Shown one piece after another: positions 1 to 63,070 of a stretch of DNA of 64,000 nucleotides (position 1 is the stretch's first letter; each line of letters begins with the position of its first letter). Source of the stretch: Haliotis cracherodii (lineage: Eukaryota); contig NW_027266308.1 of NCBI RefSeq assembly GCF_022045235.1, positions 58,900,001-58,964,000 on the forward strand, written 5' to 3'. Under the pieces are notes generated by a model. The model searched no databases, was not told where the DNA came from, and was given only the letters and a program-made list of their open reading frames with translations. Both the position numbers and the translations under genes were made by a program.

Positions 1-2322
1 GGCGAATATTTACATTTCGTCACTGCTTGTAATGTGGTGAGTGTCTTGATTTCGGCCCTGCATGCAATGTGGCAAGTGTCTACATTTCGGCTCTGTATGC
101 AATGTGGCGAGTGTCTACATTTCGGCACTGCATGCAATGTGGCGAGTGTCTACATTTCGGCACTGCATGTAATGTGGCGAGCGTCTACATTTCGGCACTG
201 CATGCAATGTGGCGAGTGTCTACATTTCGGCACTGCATGCAATGTGGCGAGTGTCTACATTTCGGCACTGCATGCAATGTGGTGAGTGTCTACATTTCGG
301 CCCTGCATGCAATGTGGCGAGTGACTACATTTCGGCCCTGCATGCAATGTGGCGAGAGGCTGACATTTCGACACTGCATGCAAAGTGGCGAGTGTCTACA
401 TTTCGGCTCTGTATGCAATGTGCTGAGTGTCTACATTTCGGCACTGCATGCAATGTGGTGAGTGTCTACATTTCGGCCCTGCATACAACGTGGGGAGTGT
501 CTACATTTCGGCACTGCATGCAATGAGGCGAGTATCTACATTTCGGCTCTGCATGCAATGTGGTGAGTGTCTACATTTCGGCACTGCATACAACGTGGCG
601 AGTGTCTACATTTCGGCACTGCATGCAATGAGGCGAGTATCTACATTTTGGCCCTGCATGCAATGTGGCGAGTGTCTACATTTCGGCCCTGCATGCAATG
701 TGGCGAGTGGCGACATTTCGGCACTGCATGCAAAGTGGCGAGTGTCTATATTTCGGCTCTGTATGCAATGTGGTGAGTGTCTACATTTCGGCACTGCATG
801 CAATGTGGTGAGTGTCTACATTTCGGCTGGGCGTGCAGTGTGGTGAGTGTCTACATTTCGGCACTGCATGCAATGTGGCGAGTGTCTACATTTCGGCTCT
901 GCATGCAATGTGGCGGGTGGCGACATTTTGGCTCTGCATACAAAGTGGCGAGTGTCTACATTTCGGCACTGCATGCAATGTGGTGAGTGTCTACATTTCG
1001 GCCCTGCATGCAATGTGGCAAGTGTCTACATTTCGGCTCTGCATGCAATGTGGCGGGTGGCGACATTTTGGCTCTGCATGCAATGGGGCGAGTGTCTACA
1101 TTTCGGCACTGCATGCAATGTGGCTGGTGGCGACATTTCAGCACTGCATGCAGTGTGGTGAGTGTCTACATTTCGGCCCTGCATGCAATGTGGCGAGTGA
1201 CTACATTTCGGCCCTGCATGCAATGTGGCGAGAGGCTGACATTTCGACACTGCATGCAAAGTGGCGAGTGTCTACATTTCGGCTCTGTATGCAATGTGCT
1301 GAGTGTCTACATTTCGGCACTGCATGCAATGTGGTGAGTGTCTACATTTCGGCCCTGCATACAACGTGGGGAGTGTCTACATTTCGGCACTGCATGCAAT
1401 GAGGCGAGTATCTACATTTCGGCTCTGCATGCAATGTGGTGAGTGTCTACATTTCGGCACTGCATACAACGTGGCGAGTGTCTACATTTCGGCACTGCAT
1501 GCAATGAGGCGAGTATCTACATTTTGGCCCTGCATGCAATGTGGCGAGTGTTTACATTTCGGCCCTGCATGCAATGTGGCGAGTGGCGACATTTCGGCAC
1601 TGCATGCAAAGTGGCGAGTGTCTATATTTCGGCTCTGTATGCAATGTGGTGAGTGTCTACATTTCGGCACTGCATGCAATGTGGTGAGTGTCTACATTTC
1701 GGCTGGGCGTGCAGTGTGGTGAGTGTCTACATTTCGGCACTGCATGCAATGTGGCGAGTGTCTACATTTCGGCTCTGCATGCAATGTGGCGGGTGGCGAC
1801 ATTTTGGCTCTGCATACAAAGTGGCGAGTGTCTACATTTCGGCACTGCATGCAATGTGGTGAGTGTCTACATTTCGGCCCTGCATGCAATGTGGCAAGTG
1901 TCTACATTTCGGCTCTGCATGCAATGTGGCGGGTGGCGACATTTTGGCTCTGCATGCAATGGGGCGAGTGTCTACATTTCGGCACTGCATGCAATGTGGC
2001 TGGTGGCGACATTTCAGCACTGCATGCAGTGTGGCGAGTGTCTACATTTCGGCTCTGCATGCAATGTGGTGAGTGTCTACATTTCGGAACTGCATGCAGT
2101 GTGGTGAGAGTCATTTCGGCCCTGCTTGCAATGTGGTGAGTGTCTACATATCGGCACTGGATGCAATGTTGCGAGTGTCTACATGTCGGTCCTGCATGCA
2201 ATGTGGCGAGTGTCGACATTTCGGCCCTGCATGCAATGTGGCGTGTGTCTACATTTCTGCCCTGCATGCAATGTGGCGAGTGTCTACATTTCGGCTCTGC
2301 ATGCAATGTGGTGAGCGTCTAC
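1..2322. repeat. 35-bp minisatellite array (about 66 units, runs off the window start)
   Basis: Consensus CTGCATGCAATGTGGCGAGTGTCTACATTTCGGCA repeated continuously; contains an 876-bp higher-order duplication. Confidence 0.97.
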
Positions 2323-2607
2323 GTGCCCTGTCGTACTCGTCTTTGTGGATAAAAAGAATACAACAGGATGAAACCCTCCAAATATAGAATAAGCATTATT
2401 TTCCTGCCGGTTGTCAGATATGATCTAGGGCCTCTTTTAGTAGATGACGGATTGACAAGGTTAAAACCATTTATAGAAAACTACTTCTTTAATTTGCTGT
2501 AATGGCCACGTTTCGGTACAGACCCTTAAATGTCGCTGTTGCACAAAATATATACGTCCTTATCCACAAAATATGTCAACTTTGTAAGAAAAATATTGCC
2601 ATAACCA

Positions 2608-2716
2608 GTCACGTGGAAAACCAACAAAAGGTATAAAGGGGGATCATTTCGATATCCTTGCATCCCGCACTTCTCCCGCAACTGTGTCCGATCTGATCAA
2701 TAGTGAAATTGTAAGT
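2608..2716 (+). promoter_or_regulatory. Putative promoter and non-coding exon 1 of GN gene 1
   Basis: GTCACGTGG 2608-2616, TATAAA 2632-2637, GTAAGT donor at 2711. The same layout is in copy 2 (TATAAA 12331, donor 12409) and copy 3 (TATAAA 19419, donor 19498). Confidence 0.6.
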
Positions 2717-2911
2717 AGAGTTTTAACATGTTCAACCATTAGTATATCTTCGTAAACCATTAGTAAATCTTAGTGGAGCATTAGCAAATCTTAGTAAAGC
2801 ATTAGTAAATCTTGCATTATTTTACGCTAACCATACGCACTGACAGTGTTATCAGTTGAACAGGACATGCTCAGCCCTCGTGCTGCCCTCACTGTTAGTA
2901 GGCGATGATTA

Positions 2912-3125
2912 GAGAGTGAATGAGTGAGTTTGGTTTAACGCGTGTCTTAGTGTGGGAGGAAAGTAATGCAGGTCTCAGATGTTTAGCACTTTGGTGAAAC
3001 CGAAGAGCATGGGTATGGTGCTGACAAACCTAGAAACATAATCGGTGCGAACTGGTATTCGAAACCACAATCATAGGTTTCTGTTGTGCCCAAGGGACTT
3101 CGCTCAGTACAGCGAATTGCGAATA
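2912..3125 (-). mobile_element. SINE-like family D fragment
   Basis: Reverse-complement match to 9658-9944, including the (ACTC)n tail. Duplicated at about 12610-12815 and 19696-19905. Confidence 0.75.
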
Positions 3126-3166
3126 ATCCATAAGCCAATCTTACCAATCTGCATTGACAGTGGGCA

Positions 3167-3500
3167 TCCTCCGTGGATGGAGCGTCCGGTGGGAGATCGG
3201 AAGGTCGGTAGTTCGATCCCTTGAGCGGGTCTTACCCAAGAAAGATGGTACTTGTTAAAAGATGGTAGTGGAAGTTAACCTGCCTGGCCCTCGTCATTCA
3301 GGGGAAAAAAATGACTGGTCATCTCGGAATCAGTATACCGTGACTGAGTTGGGTAGTCCATCTGAAAATGCAGCATGGTATCTCAGTGGGCTAGAACTAT
3401 AACACCAGCATTAGTCCGGATTATCACAAGCACACCACACCCTTCCACACACGCACACGTGCATGCACATCGCTTTATAAGTGCAATAAGCTTGAACGCG
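3167..3500 (+). mobile_element. tRNA-derived SINE family A (degenerate)
   Basis: B box GTTCGATCCC, core AAAAGATGGTA...CCTGCCTGGC, GCATGGTATCTCAGTGGGCTAG and a CA-rich tail; similar to 45094-45336. Confidence 0.75.
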
Positions 3501-3725
3501 ACGCCTCACTGAGACTGACTTATATCATTATGGATTTCAATTTCTTTAATAAGTCTTCCCATGCAAAGTAACGAATTGTCGCATAGCAAGAAAAAAGAAG
3601 TCAAAGCAATGATTCCAGATTGTAGATATCTATGAATATGTCAGGTCCGTGTTTTGGAACTCATGTCTGAGAGATGCGAGTACGGGGATACTTCAAATAG
3701 CAGTGTCTGTGTTTACTGTTATAAG

Positions 3726-3876
3726 GAGCGGTGGGGTAGTCTTGTGGTTAAAGCGTACGCCGAAGGCCTGGGTTTGATTCCCCACTTGGGTACAATATGT
3801 GAAGCCTGTTTCTGGTGTCCCCCGCCTTGATATTGCTGGAATATTTCTAAAAGCAGCGAAAAACCATACTCACTTA
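3726..3876 (+). mobile_element. Short tRNA-derived SINE family C
   Basis: GGTGGGGTAGTCTTGTGGTTAAAGCG head, B-box-like GGTTTGATTCCC, tail GATATTGCTGGAATATT...ACTCACT. Other copies at about 13337, 20517, 37560, 42458, 44196, 45887 (+) and 46508-46606, 51050-51205 (-). Confidence 0.8.
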
Positions 3877-4099
3877 CTGTCATAAACTAGAATGCAGGAA
3901 GAAGGAATCTAATTATACGTGATTAAATGTAAACGTTGTCTTAAATATAATTCGTTCATGTTGTTTGTCACTTGTTTGTTAATTAAATCATTGCAATGAG
4001 AGGTAATGAGGGTTTGATGGCAAGTCTTAACAAGATTTGATCAGCACATGAATGACATTGAAGAGTCTTTCTTACTTCACAGCTATTTGAACAGCAGAC

Positions 4100-7000
4100 A
4101 TGAAGTTCGCCGTATTTCTCCTTGTCTTGGCATGTGTTTGCGCTGTCGCCTTCAGCGCTCCTCATAAAAGGAGGTGCAAAGGCAAAGGTGAGAACGGCAA
4201 CGGCAATGGTAACGGCGAGAAAGGCAATGGAGAATGTGACGAAGGGAAGAATGATGACATAAAAGATGACTCGAACGACAACGGTAACGGCAATGGCAAA
4301 GGAAAAGACAACGGTAAAGGCAATGACAACGGTAACGGCAATGGCAAAGGCAACGGTAACGACGATGGCATTGGCAACGGCAACGGTAACGGCAATGGCA
4401 ACGGTAAAGACAACGGTAACGGCAATGGCAACGATAACGGCAATGGCAACGGTAAAGACAACGGTAACGGCAATGGCAACGGTAAAGACAACGGTAACGG
4501 TAAAGAAAACGGTAAAGATTACGGTATCGGCAATAGCAACGGCAACCGTAACGACGATGGCATTGGCAATGGCAATGGTAACGGCAATGACAACGGTAAA
4601 GACAACGGTAACGGCAATGGCAACGGCAACGGTAACGACGATGGCATTGGCAATGGCAACGGTAACGACGATGGCAACGGTAACGGTAACGGCAATGGCA
4701 AGGGTAAAGACAACGGTAACGGCAATGGCAACGGCAACGGTAACGACGATGGATTTGGCAATGGCAACGGTAACGGCAATGACAACGGTAAAGACAACGG
4801 TAACGGCAATGGCAACGGTAAAGACAACGGTAACGGCAATGGCAACGGCAACGGTAACGACGATGGATTTGGCAATGGCAACGGTAACGGCAATGACAAC
4901 GGTAAAGACAACGGTAACGGCAATGGAAACGGTAAAGACAACAGTAACGGCAATGGCAACGGCAACGGTAACGACGATGGCATTGGCAATGGCAACGGTA
5001 ACGACGAAGGCAACGGCAACGGTAACGGCAATGGCAACGGTAAAGACAACGGTAACGGCAATGGCAACGGTAACGAAGATGGCATTGGCAATGGCAACGG
5101 TAACGGCAATGACAACGGTAAAGACAACGGTAACGGCAATGACAACGGTAAAGACAACAGTAACGGCAATGGCAACGGCAACGGTAACGACGATGTCATT
5201 GGCAATGGCAACGGTAACGACGATGGCAACGGCAACGGTAACGGCAATATCAACGGTAAAGACAACGGTAAAGGCAATGGCAACGGTAAAGACAACGGTA
5301 ACGGCAATGGCAACGGTAAAGACAACGGTAACGACGATGGCATTGGCAATGGCAACGGTAAAGGCAATGACAACGGTAAAGACAACGGCAACGGCAATGG
5401 CAACGGTAAAGACAACGGTAACGGCAATGGCAACGGCAACGGTAACGACGATGGCATTGGCAATGGCAATGGTAACGGCAATGACAACGGTAAAGACAAC
5501 GGTAACGGCAATGGCAACGGTAAAGACAACGGTAACGGCAATGGCAACGGCAACGGTAACGACGATGGCATTGGCAATGGCAATGGTAACGACGATGGCA
5601 ACGGCATTGGTAACGGCAATGGCAACGGTAAAGACAACGGTTACGGCAATGGCAACGGCAACGGTAACGACGATGGATTTGGCAATGGCAACGGTAACGG
5701 CAATGACAACAGTAAAGACAACGGTAACGGCAATGGCAAGGGTAAAGACAACGGTAACGGCAATGGCAACGGCAACGGTAACGACGATGAATTTGGCAAT
5801 GGCAACGGTAACGGCAATGACAACGGTAAAGACAACGGTAACGGCAATGGCAACGGCAACGGTAACGACGATGGATTTGGCAATGGCAACGGTAACGGCA
5901 ATGACAACGGTAAAGACAACGGTAACGGCAATGACAACGGTAAAGACAACGGTAACGGCAATGGCAACAGTAAAGACAACGGTAACGGCAATGGCAACGG
6001 CAACGGTAACGACGATGGATTTGGCAATGGCAACGGTAACGGCAATGACAACGGTAAAGACAACGGTAACGGCAATGGCAACGGTAAAGACAACGGTAAC
6101 GGCAATGGCAACGGCAACGGTAACGACGACGGCATTGGCAATGGCAACGGTAACGGCAATGACAACGGTAAAGACAACGGTAACGGCAATGGCAACGGTA
6201 AAGACAACGGTAACGGCAATGGCAACGGCAACGGTAACGACGATGGATTTGGCAATGGCAACGGTAACGACGATGGCAACGGCAACGGTAACGGCAATGG
6301 CAACGGTAAAGACAACGGTAACGGCAATGGCAACGGCAACGGTAACGACGATGGATTTGGCAATGGCAACGGTAACGGCAATGACAACAGTAAAGACAAC
6401 GGTAACGGCAATGGCAACGGTAAAGACAACGGTAACGGCAACGGCAACGGCAACGGTAACGACGATGGATTTGGCAATGGCAACGGTAACGGCAATGACA
6501 ACGGTAAAGACAACGGTAACGGCAATGGCAACGGTAAAGACAACGGTAACGGCAATGGCAACGGTAACGACGATGGATTTGGCAATGGCAACGGTAACGG
6601 CAATGACAACGGTAAAGACAACGGTAACGGCAATGGCAACGGTAAAGACAACGGTAACGGCAATGGCAACGGCAACGGTAACGACGATGGATTTGGCAAT
6701 GGCAACGGTAACGGCAATGACAACGGTAAAGACAACGGTAACGGCAATGGCAACGGTAAAGACAACGGTAACGGCAATGGCAACGGCAACGGTAACGACG
6801 ATGGATTTGGCAATGGCAACGGTAACGGCAATGACAACGGTAAAGACAACGGTAACGGCAATGGCAACGGCAACGGTAACGACGATGGCATTGGCAATGG
6901 CAACGGTAACGGCAATGACAACGGTAAAGACAACGGTAACGGCAATGGCAACGGTAAAGACAACGGTAACGGCAATGGCAACGGCAACGGTAACGACGAT

Positions 7001-7729
7001 GGATTTGGCAATGGCAACGGTAACGGCAATGACAATGGTAAAGACAACGGTAACGGCAATGGCAACGGTAAAGACAACGGTAACGGCAATGGCAACGGCA
7101 ACGGTAACGACGATGGATTTGGCAATGGCAACGGTTACGGCAATGACAACGGTAAAGACAACGGTAACGGCAATGGCAACGGTAAAGACAACGGTAACGG
7201 CAACGGCAACGGTAACGACGATGGATTTGGCAATGGCAACGGTAACGGCAATGACAACGGTAAAGACAACGGTAACGGCAATGGCAACGGCAACGGTAAC
7301 GACGATGGCATTGGCAATGGCAACGGTAACGGCAATGACAACGGTAAAGGCAATGGCAACGGTAATGGCAACAGTAAAGACAACGGTAACGGCAATGGCA
7401 ACGGTAAAGACAACGGTTACGGCAATGGCAACGGCAACGGTAACGACGATGGCATTGGCAATGGCAACAGTAACGACGATGGCAATGGCAATGGCAACGG
7501 TAAAGACAACGGTAACGGCAATGGGAACGGTAACGGCAATGGTAACGACAATGGCAATGACAACGGTAACGGCAATAGCAAAGGTAAAGCCTATGGTAAC
7601 GGCAATGGCAACGGTAAAGGCAACGGCAACGGTAACGACGATGGCAATGGCAATGGCAACGGTAACGGTAACGGTGACGACAACGGTAATGGCAATGGCA
7701 ACGGCAACGGTAACGGCAACGTTAACTGA
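4100..7729 (+). CDS. Secreted Gly-Asn-repeat protein, long form (1209 aa); candidate shell/extracellular matrix protein
   Basis: Intact ORF. Signal peptide MKFAVFLLVLACVCAVAFSA, basic KRR, two Cys, then about 1150 aa of GN/DN/GK/DD/GF dyads. Acceptor TTCACAG at 4082, 3'UTR intron 7767-8481, AATAAA 8534. GN repeats are known from molluscan nacrein/N66 and N14/pearlin, but no carbonic anhydrase domain is present here. Confidence 0.93.
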   Translation: MKFAVFLLVLACVCAVAFSAPHKRRCKGKGENGNGNGNGEKGNGECDEGKNDDIKDDSNDNGNGNGKGKDNGKGNDNGNGNGKGNGNDDGIGNGNGNGNGNGKDNGNGNGNDNGNGNGKDNGNGNGNGKDNGNGKENGKDYGIGNSNGNRNDDGIGNGNGNGNDNGKDNGNGNGNGNGNDDGIGNGNGNDDGNGNGNGNGKGKDNGNGNGNGNGNDDGFGNGNGNGNDNGKDNGNGNGNGKDNGNGNGNGNGNDDGFGNGNGNGNDNGKDNGNGNGNGKDNSNGNGNGNGNDDGIGNGNGNDEGNGNGNGNGNGKDNGNGNGNGNEDGIGNGNGNGNDNGKDNGNGNDNGKDNSNGNGNGNGNDDVIGNGNGNDDGNGNGNGNINGKDNGKGNGNGKDNGNGNGNGKDNGNDDGIGNGNGKGNDNGKDNGNGNGNGKDNGNGNGNGNGNDDGIGNGNGNGNDNGKDNGNGNGNGKDNGNGNGNGNGNDDGIGNGNGNDDGNGIGNGNGNGKDNGYGNGNGNGNDDGFGNGNGNGNDNSKDNGNGNGKGKDNGNGNGNGNGNDDEFGNGNGNGNDNGKDNGNGNGNGNGNDDGFGNGNGNGNDNGKDNGNGNDNGKDNGNGNGNSKDNGNGNGNGNGNDDGFGNGNGNGNDNGKDNGNGNGNGKDNGNGNGNGNGNDDGIGNGNGNGNDNGKDNGNGNGNGKDNGNGNGNGNGNDDGFGNGNGNDDGNGNGNGNGNGKDNGNGNGNGNGNDDGFGNGNGNGNDNSKDNGNGNGNGKDNGNGNGNGNGNDDGFGNGNGNGNDNGKDNGNGNGNGKDNGNGNGNGNDDGFGNGNGNGNDNGKDNGNGNGNGKDNGNGNGNGNGNDDGFGNGNGNGNDNGKDNGNGNGNGKDNGNGNGNGNGNDDGFGNGNGNGNDNGKDNGNGNGNGNGNDDGIGNGNGNGNDNGKDNGNGNGNGKDNGNGNGNGNGNDDGFGNGNGNGNDNGKDNGNGNGNGKDNGNGNGNGNGNDDGFGNGNGYGNDNGKDNGNGNGNGKDNGNGNGNGNDDGFGNGNGNGNDNGKDNGNGNGNGNGNDDGIGNGNGNGNDNGKGNGNGNGNSKDNGNGNGNGKDNGYGNGNGNGNDDGIGNGNSNDDGNGNGNGKDNGNGNGNGNGNGNDNGNDNGNGNSKGKAYGNGNGNGKGNGNGNDDGNGNGNGNGNGDDNGNGNGNGNGNGNVN

Positions 7730-8481
7730 GGTCGAACAAATACTCTTCCAGAGCATCTTTCTACATGTAAGTTTCTACATGTAAATGTGACATACCCTTT
7801 GAGTTAACTGTTTTTGTTCGACGAACCTTTTCCATAAACTTGAATTTATATTTCCTACCTTTGAAATGACATGCCGGCAAAGCAGCAATTTATATTTAAA
7901 TAGCATGGATGCATTGAACACATGCACAATTCACGCCAGAGGGTATATGGGCAACATTGCTTCTTGTCATGTCGGTTCGAAAGGCTAAATTGTACTGGTA
8001 CATGTGATGGTACAAAGTGGTCAGAGCATGTACCATTATGCAATCAGTATCCATTATCCATTATCTCAACTCCTATACCTGTTGGGGATGTTGCAAACAT
8101 AACGGACTGACTAGTCCTCAATGAAAATTGAGCCTAAAAAACTTTTTTGCAACAATGTATTTTTTGTCAACAGTCAGAAGCATAATTCTATTTTTCAAAC
8201 ATATTCTGGGTTAATTTCCCCTCCCCTTCCCCCATTAAATGGTTAATTAAATCATGTAATCAGCAAATATGCAGCCCTATCACGGTGGCCTGTGAGCAAT
8301 CGAGTCTGTGCAACCGGGGTCCATAGAATGAAGGCTTAACGGTTTACCATGACGAGAATATCAGCTATATTTTGGGGTTAGAAATCTTACCCTTATACCA
8401 CCACACATCCATTGTGGTCCTCAGATCCGTACTGATGATGTACAGCCGGATAACGTACTAAACGTATGCTTTTACTTTCAG

Positions 8482-8560
8482 GTGAAGCAGTTTCCCATCG
8501 AGCGTAATCAAGAATGAACGTCCTGCAATCTTGAATAAATACTTTTCCCCATCTTTCAAT
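8482..8560 (+). terminator. Terminal non-coding exon with polyadenylation signal, GN gene 1
   Basis: TTTTACTTTCAG acceptor ending 8481; AATAAA 8534-8539. Conserved in copy 2 (14904, 14957) and copy 3 (22056, 22109). Confidence 0.65.
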
Positions 8561-11595: not shown

Positions 11596-11813
11596 TTCTC
11601 CTCACCTAGCTTTAAATGTTAAATGTATGTGCCACTTTTCTTACAAAACAATAACTCATCATATACAAGATTAATGGTATTGTTATGTCGCATATATTCT
11701 CCAACATTGTAACACACGGCCGATCTCTTGTTTATGGCGTGATTCACAAACACAAAAATATAATATTTATGTATCACGATACAAGTGTTTCTGCATCCAT
11801 AAAATTATGTATA

Positions 11814-12119
11814 CTGCATGCAATGTGGTAAGCGTCCACATTTCGGCCCTGCATGCAATATGGCGAGTGGCGACATTTCGGCACTGTATGCAATGTGGCG
11901 AGTGGCGACATTTCGGCACTGCATGCAATGTGGTGAGTGGCGACATTTCGACACTGCATGCAATGTGGTGAGTGTCTACATTTCGGCACTGCATGCAATA
12001 TGGTGAGTTGCGACATTTCGGAACTGCATGCAATATGGTGAGTGTCTACATTTCGGCTCTGCATGCAATGTGGCGAGTGTCTACATTTCGGCCCTGCATG
12101 CAATGTGGTGAGTGTCTAC
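11814..12119. repeat. 35-bp minisatellite, about 9 units
   Basis: Same consensus as 1-2322. Confidence 0.95.
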
Positions 12120-13655
12120 GTTCCCTGTCGTACTCGTCTTTGTGGATAAAAACAATGCAACAGGATGAAACCAAATATATAATTAGCTTTATTTTCTTGC
12201 CGGTTGTCAGAAATGATCTAGGGCACGAGAGGCCTATTTTAGAAGATGACGGATTGACAAAGTTAAAAACATTTGTGGAAAACTACCTCGCCATGCATCA
12301 TAATCAGTCACGTGGAAAACCAACAACAGGTATAAAGGGGGACGTTTCGACATCCTTGCATCCCGCACTTCTCCCGCAACTGTGTCCGATCTGATCTGTA
12401 GTGAAATTGTAAGTACAGTTTTAACATGTTCAACCATTAGTATATCCTCGTAAACCATTAGTAAATCTTAGTTGAGCGTTAGCAAATCTTAGCAAAGCAT
12501 TAGTAAGTCTTGCTATTTTATGCTAACCATACGCACTGACAGTATTGTCAGTTGAACAGGACATGCTCAGCCGAACACGTGTTGCCCTCACTGTTAGTAG
12601 GCGATGATTAGAGAGTGAATGAGTGAGTTAGGTTTAACGCGTGTCTTGGTGTGGGAGGAAAGTGATGCAGGTCTCAGACGTTTACCATTTTGGTGAAACT
12701 GAAGAGCATGGGTATGGTGCTGACAAACCTAGAAACATAATCGGGGCGAACTGGTATTCAAAACCACAATCATAGGTTTCTGATGTGCCCAAGGGACTTC
12801 GCTCACTACAGCGATTTCGGAATTATCCATAAGCCAATCTTGTCTGCATTGACAGTGGGCATCCTCCGTGGTCTAGTGGACGGGGCGTCCGGTGGGAGAT
12901 CGGAAGGTCGGTAGTTCGATCCCTTGGAGTCAACTCGGAGTCAGTATACTGTGACTGAGTTGGGTAGTCCATCTGAAAATGCAGCATGGTATCTCAGTGG
13001 GCTAGAACTATAACACCAGCATTAGTCCGGATTATCACAAACACACCACATCCTTCCACACACGCACACGTGAATGCACATCGCTTTATAAGTGCAATAA
13101 GCTTGAAGGCGACGCATCATTGAGACTGACTTATATCATTATGGATTTCAATTTCTTTAATTAGTCTTCCCATGCAAAGTAACGAAATGTCGCATAGCAA
13201 GAAAAAAGAAGTCAAAGCAATGATTCCAGATTGTAGATATGTATGAATTTGTCAGGTCCGTGTTTTGGAACTCGTGTCTGAGAGATGCGAATACGGGGAT
13301 ACTTCAAATAGTTATGTCTGTGTTTACTGTTATAAGGGGCGGTGGGGTAGTCTTGTGGTTAAAGTGTACGCTCGTCACGCCGAAGGCTTGGGTTCGATTC
13401 CCCACATAGTGACAATATGTGAAGCCTATTTCTGGTGTCCCCCGCCTTGATATTGCTGGAATATTTCTAAAAACGGCGAAAAGCCATAGTCTCATTTACT
13501 GTCACATGTTTACATGTTGTTTGTCACTTGTTTGTCAATTAAATCATGGCAGTGAGAGGTAATGAGGGTTTGATGGCAAGTCTTAACAAGATTTGATCAG
13601 CACATGAATGACATTGAAGAGTCTTTCTTACTTCAGAGCTATTTGAACAGCAGAC

Positions 13656-13970
13656 ATGAAGTTCGCCGTATTTCTCCTTGTCTTGGCATGTGTTTGCGCT
13701 GTCGCCCTAAGCGTTCCTCGTAAAAGGAGGTGCAAAGGCAAAGGTGAGAACGGCAACGGCAATGGCAACGGTGAGAACGGCAACGGCAATGGCAACGGTG
13801 AGAACGGCAATGGCAATGGCTACGGTGAGAACGGCAATGGAGAATGTGACGAAGGGAACAATGATGACAAAACTGATGACCAGAACAAGAACGGTAACGG
13901 CAATGGCAACGGCAACGGTAACGACAACGGTAACGGCAAAGGCAACGGCAATGGCAATGGCGACGCGTAA
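13656..13970 (+). CDS. Secreted Gly-Asn-repeat protein, short form (104 aa)
   Basis: Near-identical signal peptide, RKRR, two Cys, GN repeats; promoter, splice sites and polyA signal retained. Confidence 0.88.
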   Translation: MKFAVFLLVLACVCAVALSVPRKRRCKGKGENGNGNGNGENGNGNGNGENGNGNGYGENGNGECDEGNNDDKTDDQNKNGNGNGNGNGNDNGNGKGNGNGNGDA

Positions 13971-16900: not shown

Positions 16901-18480
16901 ACCCTACAATCCATCTCTCCTGGTACAGAGTGTTATGGAGCTTTATATAGAGATCCAGGGCAAAAGTTGATAGTGATATTGTTTTGTTACATCAATCTTT
17001 ACACTTATAAGCGCAACTGGATTAGTGAAGTGACTGTAGGAGCGGGTCTGTTGAAGCGCCTTAAAAGGGCAGTTTATGATCATGTTTCTCACAATCCTTT
17101 CTTAATCATATTTGTTTGTTTGTTTGTTGTTTAACGCCGCACTCAGCAATATTCCAGCTATATGACGGCGGTCTGTAAAATAATCGAATCTGGACAAGAC
17201 AATCAAGTGATTGACATCATGAGCATCGATCTAAGCAATTGGGATCGATGACATGTATCAACCAAGTCAGCGAGCCTGACCACCCGATCCCGTTAGTCGC
17301 CTTTTACGACAAGCATTGCCGCCTAAAGATATCGCAGTGCCTTGTACGAATATATCATTAACATGTGCTTATGAATCTATCAAATAGTGATTATACGTGA
17401 AGGTGAACGTATGCTGCCCCACCGGGAACACCCGTCACTAACACACGCAAAGGCATGTCAATTGTTCACCTAAAACACACACGGTAATGGTGCACGCCAA
17501 AATATAGAATTGCACCAAACATCACAATAGCCACTCATGCATCATATTTGGAAATTTCCTCCACATGTTGGTCGTAAAACGTGTTGAAGGCCGTACTGAG
17601 GCATTGCATGTTGTAACCCTGATCAAACAACTTTTGAACAAGAACCGAATGACGCTGTATTCATAGAAAGAGCATGCTTGATTGCATGTCAAAAGTTATG
17701 AAATGAAGACACCAAAGGCAGGTGCGGCTGAAATAGTACTCGACATACAGGAAAACATACGTATCATCCCTCGAGGAACATAAGACCAGAAGAGCCCCTT
17801 GGCTCATCCCTTCACAGCGAATTGCGTCGTCTTTGACTGCATGGTCACTCGTGCCCTCTCATTATAAGTACCGTGGTTTATGTTAATTATTATATTTATC
17901 ATTAGGTTACTTACTAACTGTCATATACTAAAACCATACACATGGTGTGTGTAAGTTTAGCATTATAAAGACTGCCTAGTGGAGCGTCTGCCCGGAGAGC
18001 GGAAGGTCTGCAGGGATTCGATCCCGGACCGCGTGATACCGAAATACGTTAAACGAAGGTACTTGTTGTTACCCTCCCTTTCGCTCTGCAATAAGGGGCT
18101 AAAATAAGGACTGCTCGACTTCGAGTCTGAGTATGCTGTGTATTCATGTTCAACTACGGCATGGTATCACAGTGTGCTAGGAATATAAACTCGGCATTAC
18201 TCCGAAATAGTACAAGCACACACACACACCAACACACACACCAACACACACACACACAAGCGACGTGTAACCACATTACTCTTCACCTAGCTTTAAATGT
18301 TAAATGTATGTGCCACTGTTCTTACAAAACAATAACTCATCATATACAAGATTAATGGTATTGTTATGTCGCATATATTCTCCAACATTATAACATGTTT
18401 ATGGCGTGATTCACAAACACAAAAAGATAATATTTATGTATCACGATACAAGTGTTTCTGCATCCGTAAAATTATGTATA

Positions 18481-19207
18481 CTGCATGCAATGTGGTAAAC
18501 GTCTACATGTCGGCCCTGCATGCAATATGGCGAGTGTCTACATTTCGGCACTGCATGCAATGTGGTGAGTGTCTACATTTCGGCCCTGCATGCAATGTGG
18601 TGAGTGTCGACATTTCAGGCACTGCATGCAATGTCATGAGTGTCTACATGTCGGCCCTGCATGCAATATGGTGAGTGGTGACATTTTGGCACTAGATGCA
18701 ATGTGGTGAGTGTCTTCATGTCGGCCCTGCATGCAATATGGTGAGTGGCGACATTTCGGAACTGTATGCAATGTAGTGAGTGTCTACATTTCGACTCTGT
18801 ATGCAATGTGGTGAGTGTCTACATTTCGGCCCTGCATGCAATATGGCGAGTGTCTACATTTCGGCACTGGATGCAATGTGGTGAGTGTCTACATGTCGGC
18901 CCTGCATGCAATATGGTGAGTGGCGACATTTCGGCACTGTATGCAATGTAGTGAGTGTCTACATTTCGACTCTGTATGCAATGTGGTGAGTGTCGACATT
19001 TCGGCCCTGCATGCAATATGGCGAGTGTCTACATTTCGGCACTGGATGCAATGTGGTGAGTGTCTACATGTCGGCCCTGCATGCAATATGGTGAGTGGTG
19101 ACATTTCGGCACTGCATGCAATGTGGTGAGTGTCGACATTTCGGCACTGCATGCAATGTGGAGAGTGTCGACATTACGGCTCTGCATGCAATGTGGTGAG
19201 TGTCTAC
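18481..19207. repeat. 35-bp minisatellite, about 21 units
   Basis: Same consensus as 1-2322. Confidence 0.95.
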
Positions 19208-20887: not shown

Positions 20888-21256
20888 ATGAGGTTCGCCG
20901 TATTTCTCCTTGTCTTGGCATGCGTTTGCGCTGTCGCCCTAAGCGCTCCTCGTAAAAGGAGGTGCAAAGGCAAAGGTGAGAACGGCAACGGCAATGGCAA
21001 CGGTGAGAACGGCAACGGCAATGGCAAAGGTGAGAACGGCAACGGCAATGGCAAAGGTGAGAACGGCAACGGCAATGGCAACGGTGAGAACGGCAATGGC
21101 AATGGCAACGATGACAACGGCAATGGAGAATGTGACGAAGGGAACAATGATGACAAAGCTGATGACCCGAACAACAACGGTAACGGCAATGGCAACGGCA
21201 ACGGTAACGACAACGGTAACGGCAAAGGCAACGGCAATGGCAATGGCGACGCGTAA
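20888..21256 (+). CDS. Secreted Gly-Asn-repeat protein, short form (122 aa)
   Basis: Signal peptide MRFAVFLLVLACVCAVALSA, RKRR, two Cys flanking five GENGNGNG(N/K) units; gene signals intact. Confidence 0.88.
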   Translation: MRFAVFLLVLACVCAVALSAPRKRRCKGKGENGNGNGNGENGNGNGKGENGNGNGKGENGNGNGNGENGNGNGNDDNGNGECDEGNNDDKADDPNNNGNGNGNGNGNDNGNGKGNGNGNGDA

Positions 21257-29600: not shown

Positions 29601-30351
29601 CTTGGACCGGTTTTATCCGGATTGATAGATTGATAAGAATATTATTGAATTTTCAAACTTCATTTATCTGATCTCACAACTGTACGAGACACAATTTCCT
29701 TACCATAAGGCATAACGTACCGTTGCTGTGTAACATATATTTTGCAGGGTTTGTAGGGATTGTTACATGCTGGTATTGTCATTGTTTGTACGTGCTTGTC
29801 ATTCCATTCCCTTTGACAATCCGAGTTAGATTTGGCCTCCTTAACTCATGCGACTAACGGGTTCGGGTGGGCAGGCTCTTGGTTGACGCATGTCATCGCA
29901 TCCCAATTACGTTGATCCATGCTCATGATGTCAATTACTGGATCGTCTGTTGCTATCGCTTCTTGCCGTTTGGTATTTTCTTGAAGATGTTTTGTTATTA
30001 ACTGTAAATTTCTCAGTTAACTTGTCAATGGAGACTCGTTTCGGAAAGCGCCATTTTTGTTATTTGACCAGCGTGCATTCCTTCGCTTCCAACAATTTTC
30101 TCGATGTGAGTAACATAATATTTGACTCGACACAAGAAATAGCCTATTTTTATACATCTGTAGTTTGTGAACTGAGCAAGGACGCAGGGACATGTTCAGA
30201 GCTGGTGCACCGTTTCTACTACAACAAAGCCACCAGAAGGTGCGAGGAGTTCCACTATGGCGGCTGCGGAGGAAACGGAAACAACTTCCGGAACAAGAGG
30301 GCGTGTATGAGAACCTGTAGGAAGAGAGGCGCCTTCTTTAACAGACCTTAA
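26695..30351 (+). CDS. Secreted FOLN + BPTI/Kunitz domain protein A (174 aa, 4 coding exons)
   Basis: Exons 26695-26833, 28240-28361, 29110-29185, 30164-30351; all GT-AG, phases 1-0-1, frame open. MTSHGIVPFTILTCVSVALVSG...GPRPFRGFGRIFRPFRCLIGCRFGNAPSDCTCPRRPEYTCA|QLKCTDDKVCKVLFGRFPRCVRDQA|[52 protein letters not shown]. Kunitz signature FxYGGCxGNxNNF; AATAAA 30510. Confidence 0.88.
27966..28082. mobile_element. Fold-back / MITE-like palindrome
   Basis: About 37-bp arms AGAGGTTATCACGCTTGTGTGTTTGGGGATGGTAAATA and TATTTCCCATCCCCAAACACACTCGCGTGATAACCTCT. Confidence 0.7.
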
Positions 30352-34778: not shown

Positions 34779-36779
34779 ATGATGAGTAAGATGATGCTTG
34801 TCGTGGCCTTGATCATAACCTGTGCTATATCTCATGGCCATGGTGTGGCTGACACTAATGAAACCACGTCCCAGAGAAGGGCAACTTCCATGGCTTCAGC
34901 TGAAGGTGAGGATACAAAGTTAGCTGGCAATATTTATTATATATATGTTTAGAAGTAGTTATCCTGGATGTATGTAGTATTCACAAGAACGGTCAAGGGT
35001 TTAGTGATCCCAGTATATCAACACTCGTTCTTGAGGGCCGCATTTTGCATAACGGTTCGAATAACAGTCATCTAATATCTGAGACATCTTAGAATAACTA
35101 GCCTTCATGCAACAGGGGTGCAACTGTCTTGGGAGACGTAAATTTCTATTTTTTCATCAGCATAGACAACCACCGTGAAATAGTTTTGAATGTGGTACGT
35201 AGATGACCATTTTCATCACAGATGGCGTCCAGACGTACATGTACTTGATACTTTATAGGGCCTTACGTCCTGGGCTATATGAGAACAATTCGCTGTTTCT
35301 TCATCTGTCGGCGAGGTTTGACGGACACCCGCTGTGATTGTTCCAGGTGTAAGGTAAGATTTAATTGATCGATCGTATTTCATGATTTTGAATATTTCAA
35401 AGAGAGGAAAGCGGAAGTCACAAAATGTTTGGTACAAGACTATTACATTGATACGTATCGTCATTTTAAGGAAATTGCTTAAACACAATTGTACATGTAG
35501 TGCCACGCTGGTGGCTAGATGGATGGATTAGGCTCAACGGGTGTTGGTGATACAACTGATGAGAATGTTTGGCTGTATGACTGAATGCGGATCAGTATTT
35601 CAGTTATATTACGGACCGGTGAAGATCCTGATTAGAATAGGTCTTCAGCAACCCAGGCTTGCCATAAAAGGCGACTGTGCTTGTCATACGAGGCGACTAA
35701 CGAGACCGGGTGGTCAGGCTCGCTGACTGGGTTGATGCATATCATCGTTTCCCAATTCCGTAGATCGATGCTCATGATATCAATCACTGGATCGTCTGGT
35801 CCAGACTCGATTATTTACAGACCACGGTCATATAGCTGGAATATTGCTGAGTGGGGCGTTGAACAACAAACAAACAAAAGTTATAGTAGAGGGAGAAAAT
35901 CCCGACGTAATGAACGTATTATACGCTTACAACTTTAATGAAGCCCATGAGCACAGGTATGGCGCTATAAACCAAGAACCATAATAAGGGAAAACCGGGT
36001 ATTGGAACCCACGATCATAGAATTCTAGCACATCTCAGGTGGCAACCATATTTAGCGATCGGGTCAACAATAACCCATGAAATGCGTTGCAGTCAGATAA
36101 TTTCATATTACTACTTGTACGCTTACATGTCTATCTCGACCTGCACATTAGTGCTTTTGTTTTGAGTGTCTAAAAATGTCACCAGTATGTCAGTATAATA
36201 GATGGAATCGAAAACAATGAAGAATGTGCGCGGAAACGTATGCGTATCTTAAAACAATTACACATTTTCAGACTAAAGTATGCCAAGCAGGTCAGCGGTG
36301 TAAAATGAATGAGGGAAATCCAGTCTGTGTTGCTGATCGCGAAGGTAAGGGGACAGTTATACTTATGCGTCTTTCTGTTTATCAAACACAATTCATCTCA
36401 GATGCGTAATTTGAGGACGATACATGAACGCAAATACATACGAACAGAAAACACCAGCGACGACTTTTTTTTACAAGAATCTAGCCCTACGAGCAACTCA
36501 GCATCTAGAAACACTTATGTCATGAATCTGATTACATGAAAGCATCTTGACGTTTAAACTGTTTGTCATCTCAAATATGATAACCCCTGTCCCGTTTACA
36601 CAGTGTGCCAGTTGACAAGGGAACTTGGACCATGCAGAGCTCTCATGCCGCGATATTTCTACAACCAAGCCACCCGTCGATGCCAGCAGTTCTATTATGG
36701 TGGTTGTCAAGGAAACGGCAACAACTTCAAAACCCGTGGGGACTGTGTTGCTACGTGCAGGAGAAGAGGCGTTGTGTAA
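34779..36779 (+). CDS. Secreted FOLN + BPTI/Kunitz domain protein B (156 aa, 4 coding exons), P1 Arg
   Basis: Exons 34779-34905, 35259-35353, 36272-36344, 36604-36779; GT-AG, phases 1-0-1. MMSKMMLVVALIITCAISHG...GPYVLGYMRTIRCFFICRRGLTDTRCDCSRCK|TKVCQAGQRCKMNEGNPVCVADRE|[58 protein letters not shown]. Canonical six-Cys Kunitz. Confidence 0.9.
35614..35877 (+). mobile_element. SINE-like family B, full length
   Basis: GACCGGTGAAGATCC...GAGGCGACTAA...GCTGGAATATTGCTGAGT...(AAAC)n. Confidence 0.85.
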
Positions 36780-38079
36780 AAGCCATACTGACTTCATATC
36801 AAACAGAAATGAACTTTTGAAATTAGTTCATCCCACTTTGTGAAGCTGTTAATGACGATATAGCGACAATGAAGTTTCATTGGACAAATGGATAATTGAG
36901 GAAAGAAATTAAACACTTCGAATGACGTTACGTTATTGTTGGCGTTGATGTTAACTATGATAAAGTGTGATTTCATAAGATGTGGTAAATAAATTTCAGC
37001 TACCATTATTTGACCAGTTTTGAATGAGCGAGGACATACTGGATTTGTCTTGTAGCATTGGAGTGGTGGAGCGTTGGAGTGTTGGAGTTGTGTGATGAGT
37101 TCCATTGTTTTAGTTTACTTGGTGGACGTTTATAGGGACAAAACACAAGTGTTGTTCGTGTGTTTGAGAACTACCGGGTTTTCTGCTTAATGTCCGATAA
37201 GTTAGAGTTTACGTCACTAGCAGGATATAGTCTTAAAAAAATAGACATGATGGATCATACACTTACTTCATACATATCTGTGGCCCGCCACTCCTAAGGG
37301 GTTGAGTGTTAAGCCAAGGTTAAAGCTGTTGTTAATTGTTCCACAATCGGACCTTTTACATACGCACTGATTCCTGACAACGATAAAAGGTGCATAAAAC
37401 TTACACGGCATTTTATCATCAGTTCAGACGAATGGTAAAAGTGCCATTATCAAAATCCTGCTTGAGAGTGAGTGAGTGAGTTGGGTTTAACGCCACTTTT
37501 CCTGCTTGAGAAGATGATCAAAGCCTGAATCTCATGTTTGTCCAAGGTCCGAGCCTCATTGTAGCCGGGAGTGGTTCGTTATACAAACTAGTTAAATAGT
37601 TAGTGCATTTGTTTGTCACACCGAAATCCCAAATTCCATTCCCCTCATGAGTACACTATGAGAAACCCATTTTTGGTGAAACCCGCCGTGATATTGTCAG
37701 AATATTGCCAAAAGCGGCTGCGTAAAGCAATATTCACTCATCCATGATTCCGCTGCAGAAAAACACATTTACATGTTGGCACTACATTAAGTGAAATTTT
37801 GATGGTGCGGTCAACATTTTTATTAAGTTCTCTTGGTGTCACAATACAAACGATATACTGAGTTCATGTCACGACCTGGCGTCTGTCGTCGTCCATGGTT
37901 TCGTCTGTAAACATCACTACACCTATGAAGCTGAAATTTCACATATTTTTTAACACCAATGATGAGACTTGAATCCGAGTTTAAATATTTAATTTATTTA
38001 TTGTCATTATTCATACATTCATCCATATGTAATGAAATTTGGTATGTAGTAGTGGATAACAATCTGATGTTCTCCGTGT

Positions 38080-43400: not shown

Positions 43401-43641
43401 ACGTGACACCGTACATTGCAATTATTGTGCTATATTCTATGTTTGTGTTATTACAGTGTATAGGCTCCCTAAAGTTAGCGGAAACTGCAAGGCTTACCTG
43501 CCCCGGTACTACTACAATTGCTATTCCCGGAGATGTGAGAGTTTCATCTACGGCGGATGTGGTGGAAACGGAAACAACTTCAAGACGCTCGACGAGTGTA
43601 ACCGACGCTGCAGAATCCGGTACAGAGGGGATGCCTATTGA
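40415..43641 (+). CDS. Secreted FOLN + BPTI/Kunitz domain protein C (about 166 aa, 4 coding exons), P1 Lys, atypical Cys pattern
   Basis: Exons 40415-40529, 42637-42764 (alternative in-frame start 42652), 42934-43006, 43457-43641; phases 1-0-1. [21 protein letters not shown]...[24 protein letters not shown]|[24 protein letters not shown]|[61 protein letters not shown]; AATAAA 43720. Confidence 0.88.
41890..42138 (+). mobile_element. SINE-like family D, 5' truncated, with 12-bp TSD
   Basis: Flanked by TGATGCGGCAAG at 41878-41889 and 42139-42150; (ACTC)n tail. Confidence 0.9.
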
Positions 43642-60874: not shown

Positions 60875-63070
60875 GTCATACTGAATGTTGGATGGTGACT
60901 GGATGATCACACCGGATGTTGGTTGGTGACTTGATGATCGCACCGGATGTTGAATGGTGACTGGATGTCATACTGGATGTTGAATAGTGACTGGATGATC
61001 ACACTGGATGTTGGATGTGACTGGATGTCATACTGGGTGTGGATGGTGAATGGATGTCATACTGGATGTGGATGGTCACTTGATGTCACACTGGATGTTG
61101 GATGGTGACTGTGTGATCATACAGGATGTTGGATGGTGACTGGATGATCAGACTGGATATTGGATGGTGACTGGATGATCACACCGGATGTTGGATGGTG
61201 ACTGGATGATCACACTGACTGATTGTCATACTGGATTTGGGATGGTGAAGAAACCCACGAGCACGGGTATGGTGCTGACAAACCTAGAAACATAATCGGA
61301 GCGAACCGGGATTCGAACCCGCAATCATAGGTTTCTGGCGTGCCCAAGGGCGTGCCCAAGGGACGAATCGCGGCGCCTCAGACGACTGGGTCACCCGTGC
61401 CCCCTCATATTGGATGTTGTATGGTGATTGGATGTTACACTGGATACTGGGTGGTGACTGGATTTGTGATGGTAACTGGAAGTCATACTGGATGTGGATG
61501 GCGACTTGATGTCACACCGGATGTTGGATGGTGACTGTATGGTCACATTGCATGTTGGATGTTGACTTGATGTCAAACTGGATGTTGGATGTTGACTGGA
61601 TGTCATACTGGATGTTGGATAGTAACTGGATGTCATACTTGATTTGGGATGGTGACTGGATGATCACACAAGATGTTTGATGATGACTGAATGGTCATAC
61701 TGGATGTTTGATGACTAGACGCCATACTGGATGTTGGATGGTGAATTGATGTCATACTGGATGTTGGATGGTAACTGAATGTCATACTAGATGTTGGATG
61801 GTAACTGAATGTCATACTGGATGTTGGATGGTGACTGGATGTCACAATTGGTGTTAGATGGTGACTGGATGATCACACTGGATGTTGGATGGTGACTAAA
61901 TGTCATACTGGATTTAATGGCGACTGGATGTCATACTGGAGGTTGGAAGGCGACTGGATGTCATACTGGATTTAATGGTGACTGGATGATCACATGATGG
62001 TCAGTGAATTATAGTAGATGCTGGAACGTGACTGGACGGTCACAATGGAGGTTGGATGGTGACTGGATGTCATACTGGAGAATGGAAGGCGACTGGATGT
62101 GATGCTGGATATTGGATTGTTATCAGATGGCCATAATGGATGTTAGATGGTGACTGAATGGTCATACTAAATGTTGAACGAAGACTGGAACTCATACTGG
62201 ATGTTGGATGGTGACTGTATGTCATACTGGATGTTGGATGGTGACTGAAATGTCATACTGAATGTTGGATGGTGACTGGAGGTCATACTGGATGTTGGAT
62301 GGTGGCTGGATGATCACACTGAATGTTGGATGGTGACTGGATGATCAAACTAGATGTTGGATGATGACTGGATGTCATACTGGAGGTTGGATGGCGACTG
62401 GATGTCATACTGGATGTTGGCTGGTGACTGGAATATCATAATGGATGTTGGATGGTGACTGGATGTCATACTTGATGTTGGATGTTGACTGGATGTCATA
62501 CTGAATGTTGGATGGTGACTGGATGTCATACTGGATGTTGGGTGGTGACTGGATGTCATACTGGATGTGGATGGTGACTGGATGTCATACTGGATGTTGA
62601 GTGGTGACTGGATGATCACACCGGATGTTGGATGGTGACTAAATGTCACACTGGATGTTGGATGGTGAGTGAAGTATATACTAGATGTTGGATGGCGACT
62701 GGATGTCATACTGGATGTTAAATAGCTACTGGATGTCAAACTGGATGTGGATGGTGACTGGAATATCATACTGGATGTTGGATGGTGACTGAATGTCATA
62801 CTGGATGTTGGATGGTGAGTGTAACATACTAGATGTTGGATGGCGACTGGATGTCATACTGGATGTTGGATGGTGACTGGAATATCATACTGGATGTTGG
62901 ATGGTGACTGAATGTCACACTTGATGTTGGATGGTGAGTGTAACATACTAGATGTTGGATGGCGACTGGAAGTCACACTGGATGTTAAATAGCGACTGGA
63001 TGTCAAACTGGATGTGGATGGTGACTGGATGGTCCCACTGGATGTCATTATGGATGTTGGATGGTGACTG
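60875..63070. repeat. 30-bp minisatellite, interrupted by a SINE
   Basis: Consensus CTGGATGTTGGATGGTGACTGGATGTCATA with TGGATG sub-repeats. Confidence 0.96.
61248..61405 (-). mobile_element. SINE-like family D 5' part inside the 30-bp satellite
   Basis: GAAACCCACGAGCACGGGTATGGTGCTGACAAACCTAGAAAC...GGATTCGAACCC...GGCGCCTCAGACGAC. Confidence 0.85.

What the first reader, a model, noticed from the sequence alone, without database searches (positions are those of the whole stretch)
4100..7729. Stand-alone 1209-aa (Gly-Asn) polymer in strict dipeptide register with a 38-aa super-repeat
Seen: after about residue 60 the chain is almost wholly GN/DN/GK/DD/G(F/I) dyads. The recurring unit is DDGFGNGNGNGNDNGKDNGNGNGNGKDNGNGNGNGNGN (114 nt, e.g. 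4745 to 4859). Length variants keep the 6-nt register, with no stop in 3.6 kb and no enzyme domain. Inference: alternating beta-strand or solenoid structure with periodic DD/K charges and one Phe/Ile, a possible mineral template or fibre. It is far longer than the GN tracts I know.
Basis: partly seen in the sequence, partly recalled or inferred. Interest (0 to 1): 0.7.

Follow-up and report, generated by a model that had tools for sequence, protein, structure and literature searches.

The report
Giant abalone glycine-asparagine polymer protein
An abalone genome holds a tandem family of genes, spliced in related species, for likely secreted proteins made almost only of glycine and asparagine; one copy has grown to 1,209 residues, and the family likely acts as a flexible shell-matrix polymer that would turn more acidic with time, though its tissue and mineral role are untested.

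Summary
The ORF is real (1,209 aa; G 37%, N 37%, D 13%, K 6%). It is one of four recent tandem copies of an abalone gene; two encode 104- and 122-aa siblings and one has a broken start. It has a signal-peptide-like start, a TATA box and two UTR introns, which RNA-type contigs of two related organisms join. No homologue was found in any protein search.

The 'strict register' is weak evidence for a beta-structure. Slippage of a 6-nt repeat preserves it, 3 of 6 frames are stop-free, the siblings break it every 9 residues, and AlphaFold gives no confident fold.

Best reading: a secreted, disordered Gly/Asn/Asp polymer that works like the NG domains of nacrein/N66 and the [GN]n nacre proteins of Haliotis. 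Its 370 Asn-Gly sites would deamidate and raise its negative charge.

Boldest reading: the short siblings are the abalone AP8 nacre proteins, whose size and composition I recall from a paper I could not read.

Not shown: tissue, presence in shell, transcription of the long copy itself, array length in other animals. New variant of a known kind; interest 0.45.

The parts
11..2322 (.). 35-bp minisatellite (66 copies) upstream of the promoter; arrays of the same unit precede the sibling genes at 11813-12116 and 18480-19207
   Evidence: TRF; blastn of flanks
2632..2637 (+). TATAAA box, conserved in all four copies
   Evidence: sequence; function inferred
2652..2710 (+). non-coding exon 1 (5' end approximate)
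   Evidence: contig depth jumps in bin 2652-2714 in X8 and X13; joint 2710>4083
2711..4082 (+). intron 1 (GT..AG, 1,372 nt) in the 5' UTR; a minor alternative donor near 3203
   Evidence: joined in X8, X13, X15; alternative joint in X8, X14; splice motifs
4100..7729 (+). single-exon CDS of the 1,209-aa Gly/Asn/Asp protein
4100..4156 (+). likely signal peptide (about residues 1-19)
   Evidence: mean hydropathy 2.45 over residues 2-19; no SignalP run was available
4157..4276 (+). family leader: basic KRR motif (possible convertase site), two Cys, acidic patch
   Evidence: shared with the siblings at 89% over residues 1-45; cleavage inferred
4277..7726 (+). coding tandem array: 6-nt words within 30-nt subunits within 114-nt units; most uniform in the centre and 3' half, frayed at both ends
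   Evidence: its GKDNGNGN DNA word occurs only here in the genome, 36 of 36 matches
7767..8481 (+). intron 2 (GT..AG, 715 nt), 37 nt after the stop codon
   Evidence: joint 7766>8482 in X8, and 7763>8483 with 4 other letters in X15; splice motifs
8482..8559 (+). non-coding exon 3 with AATAAA at 8534 and poly(A) after 8559
   Evidence: poly(A) loose end in X15; sequence
13656..13970 (+). sibling gene, 104 aa, 9-residue GENGNGNGN units; mature mass 8.4 kDa, or 7.6 kDa if cut after the basic motif
20888..21256 (+). sibling gene, 122 aa; mature mass 9.9 or 9.2 kDa

Best explanation
This is the repeat-expanded member of a four-copy tandem gene family in an abalone, encoding a likely secreted, likely disordered Gly/Asn/Asp polymer that likely serves in the shell matrix as a calcium-carbonate-modulating chain. 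SHOWN: the ORF, its siblings, and the exon-intron structure used in related organisms. INFERRED steps: (1) the unit 'minisatellite - promoter - three exons' duplicated recently; (2) in one copy an even-length 30-nt/114-nt unit was amplified by slippage and unequal crossing-over, which by itself keeps the dipeptide register; (3) the protein is secreted and possibly trimmed after KRR, and its two Cys may link chains; (4) outside the cell it is a flexible polyanion (computed charge about -92 at pH 8) whose periodic DD/KD patches bind Ca2+ and crystal edges, as proposed for NG domains; (5) its 370 Asn-Gly sites would deamidate spontaneously to Asp/isoAsp-Gly and push the charge towards -460, so it would mature into an (Asx-Gly)n polyanion.
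For: Real gene family: GT..AG joints for both introns and a poly(A) end in RNA-type contigs of organisms C and D. Junction contig depth was 4,604 (X8) and 29,367 (X13) against about 220-290 for most unique intron contigs; X14 showed far less, which hints at sample-restricted expression. Coding frame: of 14 distinct changes among the 13 full units, 10 fall on third codon positions and 7 are silent, against 20-27% silent expected (p 0.011-0.052); the two other open frames have 2 of 14 silent. Recent duplication: flanks 85-97% identical among copies. Host is Haliotis: a gene on contig C9 matches H. laevigata CLC_4/CLC_5, and the Kunitz exon in ORF 30028-30351 matches an H. laevigata entry. Analogy: CLC_4 and CLC_5 carry GN tandem repeats and are major nacre proteins (PMC6003135 passages). 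Has-CL10Contig2 has a [GN]n repeat and is restricted to the nacre-forming mantle (PMC4944945 passage). The NG domain of nacrein/N66 is described as a regulator of calcification (PMC6599672 passages). Fast Asn-Gly deamidation is recalled textbook chemistry, not from a call.
Against: No tissue label was available for any run, so mantle expression is not shown. Family strings were absent from all 27 supplement files of the H. laevigata shell proteome (DNGNGNGNGK and NGNGK 0 hits in 27 of 27; leader strings in 24 of 27, where the one FAVFLL hit is in unrelated translated text). That weighs against a shell role, though only moderately: the species differs, deamidation was not among the variable modifications, and every tryptic peptide of 7 or more residues contains NG. 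Transcription of the long copy is not shown: no RNA holder of organism A was listed, and the siblings and the C9 gene can account for most array-tail bins. The selection test is small; the linked F/I change counts twice, and one reverse frame, which has stops, scores similarly. The closest downstream Kunitz match comes from the hemolymph/tentacle database file, not the mantle set, so the neighbourhood gives no shell clue.
Confidence: 0.5

Rival explanations
1. The family is a secreted gel or glue protein of a non-mineral tissue (foot mucus, egg jelly, periostracum, larval operculum), with the same disordered polyanion chemistry.
For: Same gene-level evidence. No peptide in the H. laevigata shell proteome supplements. 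Tissue unknown.
Against: The abalone GN-repeat proteins with tissue data in the papers read are nacre or nacre-mantle proteins. The proteome blank has a technical explanation.
Confidence: 0.22
2. One reading: the long copy folds or stacks as an in-register beta-strand, solenoid or cross-beta fibre, with Gly/Asp on one face and Asn/Lys/Phe on the other, and the register is under selection.
For: Near-perfect parity over about 1,180 residues; from residue 29 on, all 15 Phe, 15 of 17 Ile and all 5 Tyr lie on the Asn side. Silk-like Gly-X alternation and Asn ladders are known structural motifs (recalled).
Against: No 3-nt periodicity exists to generate odd-length slips, so parity needs no selection. 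The siblings break parity. Net charge is about -92. AlphaFold pLDDT 36 and 40. PDB sequence search gave only low-complexity matches, best E 0.0015.
Confidence: 0.15
3. The short copies are the working genes, and the long copy is a tolerated runaway expansion that is weakly expressed, variable between animals or decaying.
For: A fourth copy has already lost its start frame. The array is young and homogeneous. Long-copy RNA is not demonstrated.
Against: The long copy keeps the TATA box, both splice pairs and AATAAA. Changes in the array lean silent. An independent DNA run (X5) holds its specific tail (7619-7719, 0 differences) and array-like words at much higher summed depth than unique contigs (782-4,274 vs 18-34; not a copy number).
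Confidence: 0.11
4. The array length is an assembly artefact.
For: No read spanning the array was seen; the only raw-read run gave 7 partial reads.
Against: Units carry distinct variants and the longest exact internal repeat is 224 nt. There is no N in the gene.
Confidence: 0.02

Closest known systems
Haliotis laevigata CLC_4/Tri_11338 and CLC_5/Tri_57798 (ML7A11/DGRP-like nacre proteins) and H. asinina Has-CL10Contig2 (PMC6003135, PMC4944945; passages and supplement excerpts seen)
   Same: Abalone, low-complexity, [GN]n tracts with Asp; CLC_4 is annotated with a signal peptide.
   Different: There GN is one block among poly-Asp, Gly/Ala or Gly/Ser blocks. Their orthologue in this genome is a separate gene on contig C9, whose 676-aa main open frame gives no alignment to this leader. 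Here the whole mature chain is GN polymer.
Nacrein / N66 (NG-repeat domain inside an alpha carbonic anhydrase) and pearlin/N14 (PMC6599672 and PMC6003135 passages)
   Same: Gly-Asn repeat domain described as regulating calcification, with longer repeats proposed to interact more strongly with Ca2+.
   Different: No carbonic anhydrase or other domain here. The repeat is stand-alone and about 1,150 residues long.
AP8 proteins of abalone nacre (Fu et al. 2005, doi 10.1021/bm049314v; paper not held; citation and secondary passages seen)
   Same: Acidic, about 8 kDa (title and passages). Recalled, not verified: variants of 8.7 and 7.8 kDa with about 35% Asx and 40% Gly, and no published sequence. 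The 104-aa sibling gives 8.4 or 7.6 kDa, Asx 40-43%, Gly 33-35%.
   Different: The composition match is approximate and rests on recall. Fragments of the CLC_4/CLC_5 protein are an equally good source. The long copy is 112 kDa.

Membership tests
Nacrein/N66 | alpha carbonic anhydrase domain around the NG repeat | tested here: not met
   0 Pfam families at E<=0.1; no room in the sequence
Nacrein/N66 | Gly-Asn / Gly-X-Asn repeat domain | tested here: met
   352 GN dyads in register after residue 61
Haliotis CLC_4/CLC_5 (DGRP-like) | sequence homology outside the GN tract; poly-Asp and Gly/Ala blocks | tested here: not met
   no BLASTP alignment of the leader to the C9 orthologue's main open frame, which lacks its first exon(s); blocks absent
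Repetitive low-complexity shell matrix proteins (functional class) | signal peptide | tested here: met
   hydropathy and pattern only; no dedicated predictor
Repetitive low-complexity shell matrix proteins (functional class) | repetitive low-complexity chain without a stable fold | tested here: met
   composition; pLDDT 36 and 40 from single-sequence models, weak support for disorder
Repetitive low-complexity shell matrix proteins (functional class) | mantle expression | not testable with these tools
   runs are coded and carry no tissue
Repetitive low-complexity shell matrix proteins (functional class) | peptides in shell matrix | tested here: inconclusive
   0 hits in the H. laevigata supplements; other species, deamidation not searched
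AP8 | mass about 8 kDa, Asx/Gly-dominated | tested here: inconclusive
   104-aa sibling 7.6-8.6 kDa, Asx 39-43%, Gly 32-35%, compared with recalled values; long copy does not fit
AP8 | identity with the purified nacre protein (peptide sequence) | not testable with these tools
   no AP8 sequence seen in searches; primary paper not held
beta-solenoid / cross-beta repeat protein | confident beta-repeat fold | tested here: inconclusive
   no confident model; single-sequence folding cannot exclude it

The most novel reading that the evidence does not exclude
This cluster encodes the abalone AP8 nacre proteins (the short copies) and a giant version of them. They are made as Asn-rich (Asn-Gly)n chains and become strong (Asp-Gly)n calcium-binding polyanions by spontaneous deamidation after secretion, a built-in chemical timer for nacre growth that also hides them from standard proteomics.
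Probability: 0.15. Interest if true: 0.8.

Novelty: new variant of a known kind. Interest (0 to 1): 0.45.

Why it matters
Acidic Asx/Gly-rich shell fractions have long been measured by amino-acid analysis, which cannot tell Asn from Asp (PMC11583211 passage for coral skeletons). This locus supplies a family with no homologue in the searches run, apparently abundant in some samples of related species, with that composition in both 8-10 kDa and 112 kDa sizes. It makes two questions directly testable by re-searching existing shell spectra with deamidation allowed: what AP8 is, and whether NG repeats gain their acidity after secretion. It is also a clean example of a tenfold size jump between near-identical sibling genes.

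Tried and rejected
Homologue searches found nothing: 104-aa sibling (7,989 candidates scored, none E<=0.001), leader against longer proteins (89 candidates, none E<=1), leader region against 57-182 aa proteins (7 candidates, none), phmmer of the leader over 1.84 billion representatives (0 hits), exact look-up (0 of 3), Pfam (0 of 3 family proteins). The ESM Atlas gave no answer.

Literature: a GNGNGNGN full-text search listed 6 of 7 papers, none on molluscs. Has-tsfgr1, Has-vm1 and Has-vm2 were considered and rejected from their descriptions (GGYGLGL repeats, 319-aa novel, proline-rich). Family motifs were absent from the 7 supplements of PMC4944945. AP8 composition was not found in searches; four papers were not held. 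A deamidation/Asn-Gly/shell search listed 10 papers, seen as listing only, none on this idea by title. BioRxiv supplements and subscription papers could hold the family.

Reads: no RNA holder was listed for organism A (no evidence either way). Raw-read run X18 laid only 7 partial reads and was uninformative. Using array-tail depth as proof of a long transcript was rejected.

Structure: fold searches were skipped because both models were low-confidence; no complex prediction was run. The stop-free antisense (1,257 aa) and +1 (1,172 aa) ORFs were rejected as by-products of the repeat.

Full report
Observation. The ORF at 4100-7729 is as described: 1,209 aa, 37% Gly, 37% Asn, 13% Asp, 6% Lys. Parity is near-perfect from residue 29: 446 of 451 Gly at odd positions, 443 of 447 Asn at even. 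All 27 internal anchor-to-anchor units have even length and 13 are 38 aa. The DNA is hierarchical: 6-nt words, a 30-nt subunit, a 114-nt unit. Pfam finds nothing.

How much the open frame and register mean. Three of six frames have no stop across the array, so length alone does not show coding. The GN frame is supported in other ways. It begins with a hydrophobic signal-like stretch. Among 14 distinct changes between the 13 full units, 10 are third-position and 7 silent (p 0.011-0.052 depending on transition weight), whereas the other two open frames show 2 of 14 silent. This test is small, one linked change counts twice, and a reverse frame with stops scores alike. The register needs no selection: self-identity is 0.66 at period 6 and 0.20 at period 3, so slips come in multiples of 6 nt. 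The short siblings use a 9-residue unit and flip parity each time.

The gene is one of four tandem copies on contig C45: siblings of 104 aa (13656-13970) and 122 aa (20888-21256), and a frameshifted copy 16.4 kb before the window. Flanks are 85-97% identical, so the duplications are recent. The GKDNGNGN word occurs only in the long copy, 36 of 36 genome matches. The gene model is TATA 2632, exon 1 to 2710, intron 2711-4082, exon 2 holding the whole CDS, intron 7767-8481, and exon 3 to a poly(A) site at 8559. Contigs of runs guessed as RNA from organisms C and D join both introns. The first junction has depth 4,604 in X8, 29,367 in X13 and 389 in X15, and is absent from the listed rows for X14. 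The tool warns that contig depth is a poor measure of expression, so 'abundant and sample-restricted' is a hint only. These runs show that the family is transcribed in relatives, not that the long copy is: the siblings and the C9 gene can cover most array-tail bins.

Host. A gene on contig C9 matches H. laevigata CLC_4 and CLC_5, and a Kunitz exon inside the window matches an H. laevigata entry. The animal is an abalone. An earlier scan note on this genome says the same (e1-9861485). The scan's index held no note on this family.

Is the array real? The longest exact internal repeat is 224 nt, units carry private variants, and non-standard words cluster at the ends, with 10 of 67 in the last block against 0-4 of about 67 in the five blocks before it. 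That is the pattern of an evolving array rather than a copied block. Independent DNA run X5 holds the copy-specific tail with 0 differences over 7619-7719, and array-like words at summed depth 782-4,274 against 18-34 for unique contigs (not a copy number). No spanning read was seen.

Mechanism. The mature chain is about 112 kDa with computed charge about -92 at pH 8, no N-glycosylation sequon, and two Cys near the N-terminus behind a KRR motif. AlphaFold gave pLDDT 36 for three units and 40 for the N-terminal part, and the PDB search gave only low-complexity matches. I read it as a flexible polyanion. GN tracts in abalone occur in major nacre proteins and in a nacre-mantle gene (PMC6003135, PMC4944945; passages), and the NG domain of nacrein/N66 is described as modulating calcification (PMC6599672; passages). 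A shell-matrix role is therefore the best bet (0.5). Asn-Gly is the fastest-deamidating dipeptide in flexible chains (recalled). With 370 such sites, full conversion would take the charge to about -460. That this happens to some degree outside the cell is expected chemistry; that it is used as a timer is inference.

Against. No family peptide or leader string appears in the H. laevigata shell proteome supplements. That study is of another species, did not list deamidation among its variable modifications, and every tryptic peptide of this family contains NG, so the blank weighs only moderately. Tissue is unknown.

Comparison. It works like the NG domains of nacrein/N66/pearlin and the Haliotis [GN]n nacre proteins, but it is a member of neither: there is no enzyme domain and the leader does not align to the C9 orthologue. 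Five homology or identity searches and Pfam found no relative. The 104-aa sibling computes to 8.4 kDa, or 7.6 kDa after the basic motif, with Asx 40-43% and Gly 33-35%. This is near my recollection of AP8 (8.7 and 7.8 kDa, about 35% Asx and 40% Gly). The primary paper was not held and secondary passages confirm only that AP8 proteins are acidic, about 8 kDa and crystal-modifying. Fragments of CLC_4/5 could explain AP8 equally well, so I put the link with the deamidation timer at 0.15.

Verdict. A real gene of an apparently undescribed abalone family, a new variant of a known kind (GN-repeat matrix proteins). The extreme length is a recent expansion, and the register is not evidence of a special fold. 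Interest 0.45, or 0.8 if the AP8 and deamidation reading holds.

Noticed in passing
G000:C45 about 58883620-58883900 (L004, L009), 16.4 kb before the window: Fourth family copy with an 8-nt deletion in the signal-peptide region that shifts the frame, and a deletion removing the intron 2 donor; likely a pseudogene.
   Followed up: partly
window about 30160-30350, 36600-36780, 43450-43640 (+), and 5.4 kb before the window: Four Kunitz-domain exons with basic tails. The ones near 30250 and -5380 are near-identical, and one matches H. laevigata comp361360.
   Followed up: partly
L018:5617-7644 (-) (G000:C9): One 676-aa open frame carries sequence matching both H. laevigata CLC_4/Tri_11338 and CLC_5/Tri_57798, which Mann et al. 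list as two proteins; they are probably one gene.
   Followed up: partly
L020 about 4200-5325 (-) (G000:C56): A separate 376-codon open frame with GNNGNGN and NGNVNGT repeats; another Gly/Asn-rich candidate gene.
   Followed up: no
window 11-2322: The 35-bp minisatellite contains an 876-bp block duplication with 482 identical bases; an array of this unit sits upstream of all three in-window promoters.
   Followed up: no
window 2974-3203: A dispersed repeat inside intron 1 supplies an alternative exon spliced to 4083 in runs X8 and X14.
   Followed up: no
window 13630-13640: The 104-aa sibling has a C>G change at the intron 1 acceptor that creates an AG two bases upstream, in the UTR.
   Followed up: no
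window 60876-63045: Degenerate 30/31/61-bp tandem array with strong strand skew.
   Followed up: no
73 kb and 39 kb before the window (G000:C45): Two actin-like exons, recognised by eye from the translations.
   Followed up: no
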